From Promethearchaeota archaeon (GTDB lineage: Archaea; Asgardarchaeota; Lokiarchaeia; Sigyniarchaeales; SOKP01): a DNA stretch of 42,544 nucleotides. This document shows, piece after piece, positions 1 through 42,544 of this stretch. Location: the NCBI GenBank assembly GCA_019894975.1, contig JAGXNO010000035.1, positions 1-42,544 on the forward strand. Reading direction: 5' to 3'. The translations under genes were made by a program, and so were the position numbers. Below the pieces are notes generated by a model that was given only the letters and a program-made list of their open reading frames with translations, was not told the origin of the DNA and ran no database searches. Every line of letters begins with the position of its first letter. Position 1 is the stretch's first letter.

Positions 1-88
<88 letters not shown>

Positions 89-7496: not shown

Positions 7497-7631
7497 GCTC
7501 CTGTAGTGTAGTCCGGCCAATCTTTCACCATATGTAAACGAAAGGGCTTGGCATGCTAGGCTTTCACCCTGGTGACAATACAGCTCGGATCGGTTTGTAT
7601 CATTAACCGGGTTCGAATCCCGGCAGGAGCA
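7497..7631 (+). tRNA. tRNA-Glu(UUC) with two 30-nt introns (21/22: 7521-7550; 48/49: 7577-7606)
   Basis: GCTCCTG/CAGGAGC acceptor, CTAGG-CTTTCAC-CCTGG; BHBs GGCC/GGCT with CTTTC/GAAAG, and GGTG/CATT with ATACAG/TTGTAT. Confidence 0.95.
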
Positions 7632-7772
7632 CCTATTTTCCATATTTATTTTTAATTTTTTCTGAGAGTTTTAATACCAACTGAATCATATAGTCATATT
7701 TTGAAAATCCGTAGGAATTATCTGAAAGAGCTAAGAAATTATTTACTAAATTTTTATAAAAATAAAAAAAGA

Positions 7773-7880
7773 TGGCGCCCCCGGCATGGTTTTCTTCTTG
7801 CTCAGAGATTGAACAAAGAAATCGAACATGCGACCGCTCGGTTAACAGCCGAGTGCTCTACCTAGCTGAGCTACGGAGGC
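7773..7880 (-). tRNA. tRNA-Asn(GUU) with a 31-nt T-loop intron (about 59/60: 7790-7820); CCA encoded
   Basis: Minus strand GCCTCCG/CGGGGGC, CTCGG-CTGTTAA-CCGAG, GCATG/CATGC T stem interrupted by a hairpin insert. Confidence 0.95.
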
Positions 7881-7985: not shown

Positions 7986-8510
7986 TCAACTTTGAGTCGC
8001 ATAATATATTAGCCATTTTGCCATGGCTTGAAAAGATTCGTTTATGTTTAAATCCTCTTTTGATGAGCAAAAAACACATTGGTTACATTTTGCTCTATCA
8101 GCATAATCATTAGCAACATCAGACTCTACTTCATGATTCTCTAAATCCCATTTCATCCCCATTAAAATAATTGGGACAAATCCCGCTTTTTGACGGATAA
8201 TTTTAAGCCATTCTGGAATTTCTCTAAAAGTATCATAATCGCTTATATCAAAACAAATAAAAGCACCACTTGCACCTTTACAATAGTCCGGTAAAAGTTC
8301 ACGAAAACGTTTTTCTCCTGCAAAATCCCATAGTTGCATTTTGACTATTTCTTGTGTGTCAAGAACTTCAGATTTGGTGTGAAATCCTGCTCCAATAGTC
8401 ATTTTATAGCCTTCTTCGAATTTACCTGTACAATATCTTGTAATCATCGCTGTTTTTCCTACCCCACCAGCACCCGCTACAATAACCTTAAATATCCAAG
8501 AACTCTGCAT
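7986..8510 (-). CDS. Rab/Ras-like small GTPase (Asgard type)
   Basis: FKVIVAGAGGVGKT, TIGAGF, LWDFAGEKRF, MKWD, CSSK; no C-terminal prenylation motif. Confidence 0.92.
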   Translation of the reverse strand: MQSSWIFKVIVAGAGGVGKTAMITRYCTGKFEEGYKMTIGAGFHTKSEVLDTQEIVKMQLWDFAGEKRFRELLPDYCKGASGAFICFDISDYDTFREIPEWLKIIRQKAGFVPIILMGMKWDLENHEVESDVANDYADRAKCNQCVFCSSKEDLNINESFQAMAKWLIYYATQS

Positions 8511-8800
8511 TATCGTTTTTCACATAAATATTCCAGTATAAAGAATAAGCCTATTGATAAATAATAAAAATTTTGCTTTAAATATTTTTTTGAAAGATTT
8601 ATTATTTAAAAAGTATAATCGAAAATCTAAGAAGACTAAATCAATAATTCTTGACTATTTTTTTTGGTATGTTCATATTTTCAAATTAAATAATGGTCTT
8701 TTTAAATAAGTATTAAGTCATTGGCTAAAATAAAAAAGATTTTATAAGATTTAATTCTATTATTTTTTAGTACTGAATTTTAAATAGTTTTAAATAAGAA

Positions 8801-8810
8801 AGGTTGTGAT
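8801..8810 (+). promoter_or_regulatory. Shine-Dalgarno-like element of the aIF1 gene
   Basis: AGGTTGTGAT matches AGGAGGTGAT (complement of the 16S tail in this window) at 8 of 10 positions and ends 8 nt before ATT at 8819. Confidence 0.55.
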
Positions 8811-8818
8811 AAGAGAGT

Positions 8819-9139
8819 ATTAAAGACGACGACATTTGTCCATTATGTAGCTTTCCTAAGGAACTCTGTATTTGTGATAGTTTAAGTGCTGACGAACAAC
8901 AAATAATCATCTCTAATGATAGACGAAAATGGGGAAGAATTGTTACTTTAATTACTTTTGTTGGAAATTTTGATGTAAACTTAAAAAATATTTTAACAAA
9001 AGCAAAAAAGAAATGTGCTTCTGGTGGAACCATTAGAGATAACGGAGTTGAACTTCAAGGAGATCATCGCTTTAAGATGAAAAAATTATTAATCGATCTA
9101 GGTTTTCCTGAAGAAAATATACTTATTCAAGGAAATTAA
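8819..9139 (+). CDS. sui1: translation initiation factor aIF1 (SUI1/eIF1 homolog); probable AUU start; absent from the ORF track
   Basis: Manual translation: (I/M)KDDDICPLCSFPKELCICD...DRRKWGRIVTLI...LTKAKKKCASGGTIRDNGVELQGDHR...LGFPEENI; zinc knuckle plus SUI1 signature; in-frame TAA at 8810-8812 upstream. Confidence 0.93.
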   Translation: MKDDDICPLCSFPKELCICDSLSADEQQIIISNDRRKWGRIVTLITFVGNFDVNLKNILTKAKKKCASGGTIRDNGVELQGDHRFKMKKLLIDLGFPEENILIQGN

Positions 9140-30844: not shown

Positions 30845-31258
30845 TTATTTTTCTTTAATTTCTTCCCTGGCTCCGCAGGCAGTGCATTTTAAATAAAGTT
30901 TTTTACCTTCTCTCTGAATTGAAGTATCTGGTTTATTACAAATATCACATAATACATATGTTTTTGTATAATTTTCGATCAATCTATTTAGAACTTGCTC
31001 TTTATATTGACCCTTCATAAATAATTGCTGACCTCTAACTTCTCCCATCGTTCCCGCACTTTTTAGAAAGACACCCAAAAAATGTCTTCTATCTCTATTA
31101 AGAATACTTATAATTTTGTTAAAATTTGTAATAAATGTGTTTCTACTCTCTATTCTAAGCTCTACTTTAGGAGTCTCGAATCTTGAGGACTTTTTTACAT
31201 TTTCCGGTATTTTTTCATAAGCTTTATTTAGCAAATCCTCGTAATTATCTAAATCCAT
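30845..31258 (-). CDS. eif2b: translation initiation factor aIF2 beta subunit
   Basis: YEDLLNKAY, RFETP, ITNF..LNR, YVLCDICNKPDT..CTACGA. Confidence 0.96.
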   Translation of the reverse strand: MDLDNYEDLLNKAYEKIPENVKKSSRFETPKVELRIESRNTFITNFNKIISILNRDRRHFLGVFLKSAGTMGEVRGQQLFMKGQYKEQVLNRLIENYTKTYVLCDICNKPDTSIQREGKKLYLKCTACGAREEIKEK

Positions 31259-32241: not shown

Positions 32242-32373
32242 TAGCGGGGGTTCGATTTGAACGAACGAATCTGCCATCCGGACGGAATTGTACGAATGAT
32301 CTCAGGGTTTCTCTATGGAGTGGTGATACCATCTATGAGCCCTGCGGCATAAACCAGGCTAGCCCACCCCGCT
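32242..32373 (-). tRNA. initiator tRNA-Met(CAU) with two introns (37/38: 32309-32333, 25 nt; 46/47: 32269-32299, 31 nt)
   Basis: A1-U72 AGCGGGG/CCCCGCT, CAGGG/CCCTG anticodon stem with three G-C pairs, CAT anticodon; BHB-like junctions at both inserts. Confidence 0.93.
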
Positions 32374-41828: not shown

Positions 41829-41887
41829 TTACCAATTCAGAATACGCAAACCCTTAGGCAAGTAATCTGAATCTTTCCTCAATTAGA

Positions 41888-42544
41888 CGCCAATACGCCT
41901 CCGCTATTTGGTGAATATCTTGGCTTGGGCACCGATGAAGAGCGTGACAAGCTGCGATAAGCTCGGGCTAGTCGCATGAAGACGTTGACCCCGAGATTCT
42001 CGAATAGGACATCCGCTTGCGGCCAAATAATCCGCAAGATTCCCTTGTGGGAAAGGGAACCCTGAGAAGTAAAACATTTTAGTATCAGGAGGAAAAGAAA
42101 ACAATAGTGATTCCGTGAGTAACGGCGAGCGAAAGCGGAACAGATCAAACCGAATCCCTAGGGAAACCTAGTGGAGATGTGGTGTATGGACCTCGTACGA
42201 CTTCCCTAGAGAAGATGAATACTCCTGGAAAGTTGAGCCATAGAGCGTGATAGCCGCGTAATTGTAACCTAGAAAGTTGCTGCGAGAGTTCCTGAGTAGT
42301 GCGGGATGGTTTTCTCGTACGAATGTGCCAGATACACGCTGGCAAATCTAAATATGTCCCAAGACCGATAGCGTAGTAGTAGCGTGAGCGAAAGATGAAA
42401 AGTAACCCGGAAGGGCCGTGAAAAGTGCTTGAAACCAAATAGCTTAGTAAGGATGCAGCCTGAAAGGATAGATTCTGCGCGAATGAGTTCTGGTGACAGA
42501 ACATCAGAGCACAGAGGACTAGGGTTGCATCATCAGTCTGGAAT
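41888..42544 (+). rRNA. rrl: 23S rRNA, 5' part (partial; 5' end approximate)
   Basis: TGGTGAATATCTTGGCTT..CCGATGAAG..AAGCTGCGATAAGC, GAAGTAAAACATTTTAGTA, GAGTAACGGCGAGCGAA, AGACCGATAGCG..GTGAGCGAAAG. Confidence 0.97.

What the first reader, a model, noticed from the sequence alone, without database searches (positions are those of the whole stretch)
8801..9139. aIF1/SUI1 appears to start at AUU: candidate autoregulatory start-codon fidelity loop in an Asgard archaeon
Seen: a complete, intact-looking aIF1 frame is bounded upstream by in-frame stops (TGA 8807-8809, TAA 8810-8812) and reads GAG AGT ATT AAA GAC GAC GAC ATT TGT CCA. It has no in-frame ATG, GTG or TTG until ATG at 9077, 86 codons in, which would delete nearly the whole domain. 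ATT at 8819 lies 8 nt after the SD-like AGGTTGTGAT and gives MKDDDICP, a normal N terminus for archaeal aIF1 (a few residues before the CxxC). Established: bacterial infC (IF3) starts at AUU and eukaryotic eIF1 has a poor-context AUG, so each fidelity factor represses its own synthesis. Inference: the same negative feedback operates here through an AUU codon on the eIF1 ortholog. I am not aware of this being described for archaea but cannot search the literature. Standard gene callers would miss or truncate the gene.
Basis: partly seen in the sequence, partly recalled or inferred. Interest (0 to 1): 0.9.

Follow-up and report, generated by a model that had tools for sequence, protein, structure and literature searches.

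The report
Archaeal aIF1 gene starting at AUU
In this Loki-type Asgard archaeon the only gene for aIF1, the factor that rejects wrong start codons, itself begins at the weak codon AUU, which its whole family has kept while ordinary genes swap AUU and AUG freely; this fits, but does not prove, self-limiting synthesis as in bacterial IF3 and eukaryotic eIF1.

Summary
The aIF1/SUI1 frame (8819-9139, +) has in-frame stops at 8807 and 8810, ATT at 8819, and no ATG/GTG/TTG until 86 codons further on. It is the only SUI1 gene in a 95%-complete genome.

It is not a sequencing error. In 79 species-level Promethearchaeota (Loki) genomes the same codon is ATT (76) or ATC (3). All 79 have a stop 1-3 codons upstream and the invariant SD-like AGGTTGTGA.

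AUU is not unique to aIF1 here. Some tens of ORFs (about 1%) appear to start at AUU/AUA/AUC behind a strong Shine-Dalgarno sequence. In orthologues of TatD, a RagA-like GTPase, MIPS and AFOR the start codon alternates between ATG/GTG/TTG and ATT/ATA/ATC at one position. So AUH is a working start codon in this family, but an unstable one.

Only aIF1 and one TFIIB paralogue keep ATT family-wide. aIF1A, aIF2-alpha and aIF2-beta use ATG. Elsewhere in Asgard, aIF1 often has GTG, CTG, ATA or TTG starts; ATG in about 46% of 54 loci.

Start at AUU: about 0.9. Autoregulation: inferred only, about 0.5. No paper found describes it, although NCBI annotation already uses the ATT start. This scan has reported the same thing many times on other genomes.

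The parts
8737..8770 (+). Conserved promoter-like block with a TATA-like box (TTTATAAG, about 8741-8748). The inferred transcription start is near 8770, giving a leader of about 49 nt.
   Evidence: The block is nearly identical across genera g1, g13, g14 and g17, while the rest of the spacer varies. It occurs once in the genome. The transcription start is inferred from the usual archaeal TATA-to-start distance and has not been measured.
8801..8810 (+). Shine-Dalgarno-like element AGGTTGTGAT. GG and GTGAT pair with the 16S 3' end; the two T's form an internal mismatch.
   Evidence: The 16S 3' end...GGATCACCTCCT, lies in the window at 75-86. The predicted duplex is -9.3 kcal/mol, within the strongest 6% of unambiguous starts. 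AGGTTGTGA is invariant in 77 of 79 species at fixed spacing.
8807..8812 (+). Two in-frame stop codons (TGA, TAA) that close the aIF1 frame upstream.
   Evidence: An in-frame stop lies 1-3 codons before the start in 79 of 79 relatives.
8819..8821 (+). ATT, the inferred initiation codon (AUU, read by initiator Met-tRNA).
   Evidence: It is the only near-cognate codon between the stops and the zinc knuckle. Across relatives it is ATT 76, ATC 3, never ATG/GTG/TTG. Most other conserved Ile codons of the gene mix ATT, ATA and ATC freely. PGAP products begin MKDDDICP.
8819..9139 (+). aIF1 (SUI1) coding sequence, 106 codons plus TAA stop.
   Evidence: It is the single SUI1 match in the genome.
8837..8875 (+). 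N-terminal zinc knuckle (CPxC ... CxC).
   Evidence: Translation. It aligns to residues 3-20 of M. jannaschii aIF1. Calls from internal TTG/GTG starts delete it.
8894..9109 (+). SUI1 domain.
   Evidence: PF01253 positions 2-77 of 77, 61.6 bits.
8806..8823 (+). Out-of-frame mini-ORF GTG ATA AGA GAG TAT TAA. Its stop overlaps the ATT (ATTAA). It belongs to a rival explanation and is probably not functional.
   Evidence: Read. Its GTG is the core of the SD. In L057 and L060 the GTG is in frame and 9 nt before ATT, rather than 10 nt as here. The stop overlap is lost in the ATC variants.
32242..32373 (-). Initiator tRNA-Met gene: anticodon CAT, A1:U72, GGG/CCC anticodon stem, interrupted by introns. 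This is the tRNA that must read AUU.
   Evidence: ARAGORN with introns allowed and a motif search. No initiator-like tRNA with another anticodon was found.
75..86 (+). 3' end of 16S rRNA carrying the anti-Shine-Dalgarno sequence.

Best explanation
The aIF1 mRNA has a leader of roughly 50 nt (inferred). The 30S subunit is placed by pairing between the conserved AGGTTGTGAT and the 16S 3' end. The ordinary initiator Met-tRNA (anticodon CAU) then starts translation at AUU 8819, with a mismatch at the third codon position.

Shown here by sequence comparison:
- AUU is the start codon.
- AUU/AUA/AUC are working start codons in this family.
- Selection has kept the weak codon on aIF1 while ordinary genes switch to AUG.

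Inferred:
- aIF1 destabilises initiation complexes on near-cognate codons. A rise in aIF1 should therefore lower initiation at its own AUU, and a fall should raise it. That holds the factor, and with it the stringency of start-codon choice, at a set point.
- The same dial would also set the output of the other AUH-initiated genes, including a TFIIB paralogue with an equally fixed AUU.
For: **Start at AUU**
- Stops lie 1-3 codons upstream and there is no canonical start, in 79 of 79 species.
- The N terminus matches solved aIF1, within two residues.
- It is a single-copy, intact gene with a conserved protein.

**AUH is a real start codon in this family.** Pfam domains begin at residues 3-29 of frames whose first canonical start is 34-67 codons in. 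The frames are AFOR, a CoA-binding protein, two RagA-like GTPases, TFIIB and TatD. At one orthologous codon:

| Gene | Start codons seen |
|---|---|
| TatD | ATG 20, GTG 4, ATT 3, ATA 2, TTG 1 |
| RagA-like GTPase | ATG 21, TTG 4, ATT 3, ATC 1, one at GTT (with an in-frame ATT two codons upstream) |
| MIPS, AFOR | similar mixtures |

**Strong SD.** These starts sit behind strong SDs of -7.7 to -10.1 kcal/mol, against a median of -2.9 for ATG genes.

**Selection for the weak codon on aIF1**
- 0 ATG among 79 close orthologues, and none among the more distant members of the same family.
- ATT is more constant than most other conserved Ile codons of the gene.
- aIF1A, aIF2-alpha and aIF2-beta use ATG.
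- Other Asgard families carry other weak starts on aIF1: CTG, GTG, ATA, TTG. By my reading of the alignments, ATG occurs in only about 25 of 54 loci.

**Biochemical premise.** S. solfataricus aIF1 removes AUU-programmed initiation complexes in vitro (summarised in PMC4705826, and PMC6237735).
Against: - No expression, ribosome-profiling, proteomic or reporter data exist. Read and RNA mapping was not possible.
- AUU is not specific to aIF1. About 1% of ORFs seem to use AUH, and a TFIIB paralogue keeps ATT in 27 of 27 orthologues. A fixed AUU can therefore be explained by selection for low or tunable output, without any self-feedback.
- Several Asgard lineages, including close relatives of cultured Loki strains, have ATG on aIF1. 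The arrangement is therefore not obligatory.
- Whether aIF1 concentration is limiting for discrimination in vivo is unknown.
- The SD is among the strongest in the genome, which may largely offset the weak codon.
Confidence: 0.55

Rival explanations
1. The gene starts at AUU, but the codon is only a way to set a low, constant translation rate, or a frozen accident. In this lineage AUH codons are tolerated starts like GUG and UUG. aIF1 does not sense its own level through the codon.
For: AUH starts occur in some tens of other genes. They exchange with ATG in orthologues. A TFIIB paralogue has an equally invariant ATT, so invariance does not need autoregulation. The strong SD (-9.3 kcal/mol) may give robust initiation regardless.
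Against: The weak start has recurred independently on this one gene as AUU, AUA, AUC, CUG, GUG and UUG across Asgard families. The other initiation factors keep ATG. If aIF1 discriminates against AUU at all, as shown in vitro for Sulfolobus, sensitivity of its own mRNA to its level follows almost automatically.
Confidence: 0.3
2. Translation starts at the out-of-frame GTG 8806 (or TTG 8804). Ribosomes reach the aIF1 frame either by termination at TAA 8821-8823 followed by re-initiation at the overlapping ATT, or by a programmed +1 frameshift.
For: GTG ATA AGA GAG TAT TAA ends in ATTAA, overlapping the ATT. A five-codon mini-ORF ending on the ATT is present in most relatives.
Against: - The GTG is the core of the SD and has no SD of its own.
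- In L057 and L060 the GTG is in frame and 9 nt before ATT, rather than 10 nt.
- The stop overlap disappears in the ATC variants.
- The mini-ORF peptide and the bases before ATT vary, so there is no slippery site.
- Re-initiation would still need AUU to be decoded by initiator tRNA.
Confidence: 0.05
3. Artefact or dead gene: a sequencing or assembly error hides a normal start, or the copy is a pseudogene and another aIF1 does the work.
For: None beyond the absence of a canonical start. Reads could not be mapped.
Against: The same arrangement appears in 79 independently assembled species genomes. This is the only SUI1 match in a 95%-complete genome. The frame is open, the protein is 78-97% conserved, and synonymous changes are seen.
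Confidence: 0.01
4. The start is the second Ile codon (ATT 8834, just before the first Cys), as NCBI annotation chooses in some relatives (products beginning MCPLC).
For: PGAP products P0006 and P0008 start there.
Against: That codon lies 23 nt from the SD. It varies between ATT, ATA and ATC. It would leave no residue before the zinc knuckle, whereas solved aIF1 has several. The KDDD residues upstream of it are conserved as protein.
Confidence: 0.04

Closest known systems
Bacterial infC (IF3): AUU start codon with translational autocontrol (Butler et al. 1987, as cited in PMC4705826)
   Same: A start-codon fidelity factor whose own gene begins at AUU behind a Shine-Dalgarno sequence. The codon is evolutionarily conserved. 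The logic gives negative feedback.
   Different: IF3 and aIF1 are unrelated proteins. In E. coli, AUU starts are almost confined to infC, whereas here about 1% of genes use AUH. Feedback is proven for infC (AUU to AUG abolishes it) and untested here.
Eukaryotic eIF1: AUG in poor Kozak context with autoregulation (Ivanov et al. 2010, as summarised in PMC4705826 and PMC6237735)
   Same: eIF1 is the orthologue of aIF1 and binds the same ribosomal site. A suboptimal own start site makes synthesis inversely dependent on factor level.
   Different: Eukaryotes weaken the context of an AUG that is recognised by scanning. Here the codon itself is near-cognate and is positioned by SD pairing. No experimental evidence exists for the archaeal case.
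Archaeal aIF1 of S. solfataricus, P. abyssi and M. jannaschii (PMC6237735; PDB 4mo0, 5jb3)
   Same: The same protein family and architecture: zinc knuckle plus SUI1 domain, with an end-to-end alignment at E 2e-25. Discrimination against AUU was shown in vitro for the Sulfolobus factor.
   Different: The papers found make no statement about the start codon of the aIF1 gene itself or about autoregulation.

Membership tests
aIF1 / SUI1 (PF01253; NCBIfam NF002096) | SUI1 domain scoring above the curated cut-offs | tested here: met
   PF01253: 61.4 bits against a cut-off of 25.5. NF002096: 109.4 bits against 98, profile positions 2-101 of 102.
aIF1 / SUI1 (PF01253; NCBIfam NF002096) | Archaeal architecture: N-terminal zinc knuckle followed by the alpha/beta domain, with full-length likeness to a solved aIF1 | tested here: met
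   CPLC...CIC lies at residues 7-19. Query residues 5-103 align to residues 3-101 of 4mo0, E 2.1e-25.
aIF1 / SUI1 (PF01253; NCBIfam NF002096) | Binds the 30S subunit and rejects non-cognate start codons | not testable with these tools
   Known for the Sulfolobus and Pyrococcus factors from the papers read. Not shown for this protein.
Fidelity factor autoregulated through its own weak start site (infC / eIF1 type) | The factor's own gene has a suboptimal start site | tested here: met
   ATT at 8819, with no canonical start.
Fidelity factor autoregulated through its own weak start site (infC / eIF1 type) | The weak start is conserved beyond what ordinary genes show | tested here: met
   aIF1: ATT/ATC in 79 of 79. 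TatD, RagA-like GTPase, MIPS and AFOR switch between ATG/GTG/TTG and AUH. Caveat: one TFIIB paralogue is equally fixed.
Fidelity factor autoregulated through its own weak start site (infC / eIF1 type) | Synthesis falls when the factor rises, and the effect is lost when the start is made optimal | not testable with these tools
   Needs reporters or toeprinting. No run or read data could be obtained.
Fidelity factor autoregulated through its own weak start site (infC / eIF1 type) | The weak start is (nearly) specific to the factor's gene | tested here: not met
   Some tens of other ORFs start at AUH behind a strong SD.

The most novel reading that the evidence does not exclude
In this Lokiarchaeial family, near-cognate AUU/AUA/AUC starts form a regulated class of roughly 1% of genes. 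Their output is set by aIF1 concentration. aIF1 holds itself at a set point through its own fixed AUU. The best-conserved TFIIB paralogue also has a fixed AUU in this family but ATG in the sister family, and so is slaved to that set point. This would couple the supply of a general transcription factor to start-codon stringency. The eIF1-type fidelity feedback would then predate eukaryotes, in their closest archaeal relatives.
Probability: 0.2. Interest if true: 0.85.

Novelty: new variant of a known kind. Interest (0 to 1): 0.7.

Why it matters
Bacteria (IF3, AUU) and eukaryotes (eIF1, poor-context AUG) each tie the level of their start-codon fidelity factor to the fidelity it enforces. Archaea have had no such example in the literature I could search.

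Here the orthologue of eIF1, in the archaeal group closest to eukaryotes, carries a conserved near-cognate start. Related lineages reach the same end with CUG, AUA, GUG or UUG.

If the feedback is real, the design principle is universal. It would have arisen by convergence with bacteria, and possibly by descent towards eukaryotes.

The side result also has practical weight. AUU/AUA/AUC are genuine, SD-dependent start codons in about 1% of genes of this family. Callers limited to ATG/GTG/TTG truncate or lose such genes, aIF1 included, which distorts gene-content comparisons of Asgard genomes.

Tried and rejected
- **Read and RNA evidence.** No read mapping, transcription start or expression check was possible.
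- **Conserved RNA structure.** Twenty leaders from -52 to +48 gave a consensus energy of -0.44 kcal/mol, with no supported helix around the SD or start. A riboswitch-like or sequestering hairpin is rejected.
- **Special initiator tRNA.** Only a normal initiator tRNA with anticodon CAT was found. tRNA detection in this genome is incomplete (28-29 genes, many with introns), so absence of others is not proven.
- **Second aIF1 copy.** None in this genome.
- **Frameshift or re-initiation from GTG 8806.** Rejected for lack of a conserved frame, slippery site or stop overlap.
- **First AUH census attempts.** Exact SD words without a coding filter gave only noise. They were replaced by a greedy ORF set plus duplex energies.
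- **CoA-binding (ACS-like) gene in relatives.** My E-value threshold was too strict and only 2 of 51 genomes matched, one of them this genome itself, so no turnover estimate came from it.
- **Promoter-like block elsewhere in the genome.** Found only upstream of aIF1, so no regulon.
- **Literature.** Searches for aIF1 with AUU, non-AUG starts or autoregulation, and for Asgard near-cognate starts, found no prior description. Ivanov 2010 itself is not held.

Full report
**1. The observation**

From 8801 the frame is AGG TTG TGA TAA GAG AGT ATT AAA GAC GAC GAC ATT TGT CCA. It stays open to TAA at 9137-9139. The first in-frame ATG/GTG/TTG is ATG at 9077, 86 codons after ATT 8819.

The product is an archaeal aIF1:
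- Pfam SUI1, E 1.2e-16.
- NCBIfam NF002096, above its cut-off, covering profile positions 2-101 of 102.
- An end-to-end alignment to the solved M. jannaschii aIF1, 4mo0: query residues 5-103 against chain residues 3-101. Starting at ATT gives an N terminus two residues longer than that protein.

It is the only SUI1 match in the genome, which is 95% complete.

**2. Not an error, and the organism**

A scan of one genome per species returned 80 relatives at 78-97% identity. Nearly all are labelled Promethearchaeota or Promethearchaeia (Loki-type Asgard) MAGs. In the 79 that cover the start:
- the homologous codon is ATT (76) or ATC (3);
- an in-frame stop lies 1-3 codons upstream in every one;
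- none has a canonical start in between.

The upstream AGGTTGTGA is invariant in 77 of 79, at fixed spacing.

Within the 48 closest unique sequences, other conserved Ile codons mix ATT, ATA and ATC, for example 11/31/6, 21/10/17 and 26/14/7. The start codon is 45 ATT and 3 ATC. One Ile codon near the start is almost as constant (41/3/4).

More distant genera of the same family use ATT, or ATA in genus g13. One g13 genome has a stop five codons upstream of the ATA and no canonical start.

**3. The ribosome-binding site and leader**

The 16S 3' end lies in the window itself and reads ...GGATCACCTCCT. The aIF1 upstream element pairs with it as GG and GTGAT around a two-base mismatch. The predicted duplex is -9.3 kcal/mol, within the strongest 6% of unambiguous starts in this genome. 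The median ATG gene scores -2.9, the same as random positions. Most genes here therefore lack an SD, and aIF1 has a strong one.

A block at 8737-8770 holds a TATA-like box. It is nearly identical across several genera and occurs once in the genome. From the usual archaeal spacing I infer a transcription start near 8770 and a leader of about 49 nt. This is inference, not measurement.

No conserved RNA structure surrounds the SD or the start.

The initiator tRNA, also in the window (32242-32373, minus strand), has a normal CAT anticodon, A1:U72 and the GGG/CCC anticodon stem. It is interrupted by introns.

**4. Is AUU special to aIF1? No**

Earlier notes of this scan claimed that AUH codons start other genes in related genomes. 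I tested this in this genome.

- Among 3,730 coding-like ORFs, 106 have at least 30 coding-like codons before their first ATG/GTG/TTG.
- For six of the twenty I checked, a Pfam domain begins at residue 3-29 of the frame, far upstream of the first canonical start. They are AFOR (ATC), a CoA-binding protein (ATT), two RagA-like GTPases (ATA/ATT), TFIIB (ATT) and TatD (ATT). Each has GGTGA-type SDs.
- In ORFs without an early canonical start, AUH codons near the frame start are enriched behind strong SDs: 62 of 537 against 221 of 3,135 for other codons, odds ratio 1.7, p 6e-4. This points to some tens of genes, about 1%.

**5. Turnover in orthologues**

This is the key comparison. I looked at the same codon across 13 genera of the family.

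| Gene | Start codons at the orthologous position |
|---|---|
| TatD | ATG 20, GTG 4, ATT 3, ATA 2, TTG 1 |
| RagA-like GTPase | ATG 21, TTG 4, ATT 3, ATC 1, one at GTT (with an in-frame ATT two codons upstream) |
| MIPS | mostly ATG, with ATA, ATT and TTG |
| AFOR | ATG 5, AUH at least 9 |
| aIF1 | ATT 76, ATC 3, never ATG/GTG/TTG |
| TFIIB paralogue (contig C87 of this genome) | ATT in 27 of 27 alignable orthologues |

The first four genes show directly that AUH codons occupy the place of ATG, so they function as start codons. They also show that ordinary genes drift between weak and strong starts.

aIF1 never does. One other gene behaves like aIF1. The TFIIB paralogue has ATT behind AAGGTG, usually with a stop two codons upstream. 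In the sister family its orthologue starts at ATG in 10 of 10 genomes.

The other initiation-factor genes of this genome, aIF1A, aIF2-alpha and aIF2-beta, start at ATG.

**6. Wider Asgard survey**

In the sister family, aIF1 starts at TTG (genera g2, g9), GTG (g11), ATA (g5, with a competing out-of-frame ATG/TTG) or ATG (g8, g24).

Across 23 further families I read 54 loci that carry the zinc knuckle. The assignments are by eye from the alignments.

| Start codon | Loci (approx.) |
|---|---|
| ATG | 25 |
| GTG | 12 |
| CTG | 10 |
| ATA | 5 |
| TTG | 1 |
| ATT | 1 |

In family f9, none of 16 genomes from 14 genera has ATG. GTG and CTG alternate at one position, and three loci have a stop one codon before the CTG.

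Near-cognate non-canonical starts on this one gene therefore recur in at least seven families. The background use of such codons is about 1%. Relatives are not independent, so I give no p-value.

**7. Mechanism**

Shown by comparison:
- AUU 8819 is the start.
- It is SD-dependent.
- The weak codon is held by selection.

Inferred:
- S. solfataricus aIF1 expels AUU-programmed complexes in vitro (PMC4705826, PMC6237735). The aIF1 mRNA should therefore be translated less as aIF1 rises. This is the same logic as AUU-initiated IF3 and poor-context eIF1.

The fixed AUU on TFIIB cuts both ways. It shows that a fixed AUU does not need self-feedback. It also suggests a class of genes tuned to aIF1-set stringency.

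My estimates are about 0.9 that translation starts at AUU and about 0.5-0.55 that a real negative feedback operates.

**8. What is known**

- No paper in the held library describes a non-AUG start or autoregulation for archaeal aIF1. The 2020 review of archaeal initiation lists only AUG, GUG and UUG.
- Public annotation partly anticipates the observation. NCBI PGAP products of several relatives begin MKDDDICP, reading ATT as Met, under the name 'YciH'. Others start at the second Ile codon. JGI, ENA and Logan calls are cut to 65-90 aa from internal TTG/GTG and lose the zinc knuckle.
- This scan has reported the same phenomenon on many other genomes: 57 notes in at least 46 genomes. My tests agree with those notes and add two things. 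First, ordinary genes switch between AUH and canonical start codons at the same position, which aIF1 never does. Second, one TFIIB paralogue keeps ATT as strictly as aIF1.

**9. Verdict**

This is a real and strongly conserved near-cognate start on the sole aIF1 gene. The most likely purpose is autoregulation, which is unproven. It is a new variant of a known regulatory principle, in the domain where it had not been described.

Noticed in passing
own genome contig C87:24559-25527 (-), locus L100/L112; not in the window: The best-conserved TFIIB paralogue starts at ATT behind AAGGTG. ATT is kept in 27 of 27 alignable orthologues from 13 genera of the family. The orthologue in the sister family starts at ATG in 10 of 10 genomes.
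   Followed up: yes
own genome: C87:100581-101336 (TatD), C109:109243-110154 (RagA-like GTPase), C88:47987-49831 (AFOR), C120:85601-86764 (MIPS), C105:21105-22034, C108:31038-32564: AUU/AUA/AUC serve as SD-dependent start codons in some tens of genes. In orthologues the same codon alternates with ATG/GTG/TTG. Callers limited to canonical starts will truncate these genes.
   Followed up: yes
window 32242-32373 (-): An initiator tRNA-Met gene (CAT anticodon, A1:U72, GGG/CCC anticodon stem) that appears to carry two introns. ARAGORN without intron mode and Rfam both miss it. Only 28-29 tRNAs are detectable in the whole genome.
   Followed up: partly
window 1-86 and 41887-42544 (+): The contig runs from the last 86 nt of 16S rRNA to the first 657 nt of 23S rRNA. 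The two rRNA genes lie on the same strand about 41.8 kb apart, with protein genes in between. An intron-bearing tRNA follows the 16S end at 161-262.
   Followed up: no
window 8737-8770 (+): A 34-nt promoter-like block (TATA-like box plus a T-rich spacer) is conserved almost base for base across several genera and is unique in the genome. This is more conservation than a core promoter needs, so it may hold a regulator site.
   Followed up: partly
loci L037, L071, L078, L086, L088, L091 (other genomes of the family): Some genomes hold a second SUI1 gene of about 62% identity, with a perfect GAGGTGA SD in frame and ATT/ATA nine bases after its GTG. Whether this is a true paralogue or bin contamination was not resolved. 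This genome has none.
   Followed up: no
loci L216-L231 (family f9), L207-L208 (f6), L235 (f11), L246 (f16), L248-L249 (f17): aIF1 genes of other Asgard families appear to start at CTG (three with a stop one codon upstream), at ATA, or at GTG. Family f9 shows no ATG in 16 genomes.
   Followed up: partly
loci L025, L027 (genus g5): aIF1 seems to start at ATA. An ATG or TTG lies 10 nt upstream in another frame, followed by a run of six A's. This could be a competing start or a slippage site.
   Followed up: no
window 8845-8850 (+): An out-of-frame ATG directly followed by TAG sits inside the zinc-knuckle codons. It is kept in relatives, probably only because the residues [L/I]-C-S are kept.
   Followed up: no
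window 7986-8510 (-) and 30866-31201 (-): A Rab/Ras-like small GTPase is transcribed divergently from aIF1. The aIF2-beta gene (ATG start) and the initiator tRNA lie in the same window.
   Followed up: no
window about 7540-7640 (+) and 7829-7880 (-): A T-arm-like GGGTTCGAATCCC with a GC-rich context near 7609, and a weak tRNA match at 7829-7880, suggest further intron-laden or split tRNA genes that the tools do not call.
   Followed up: no
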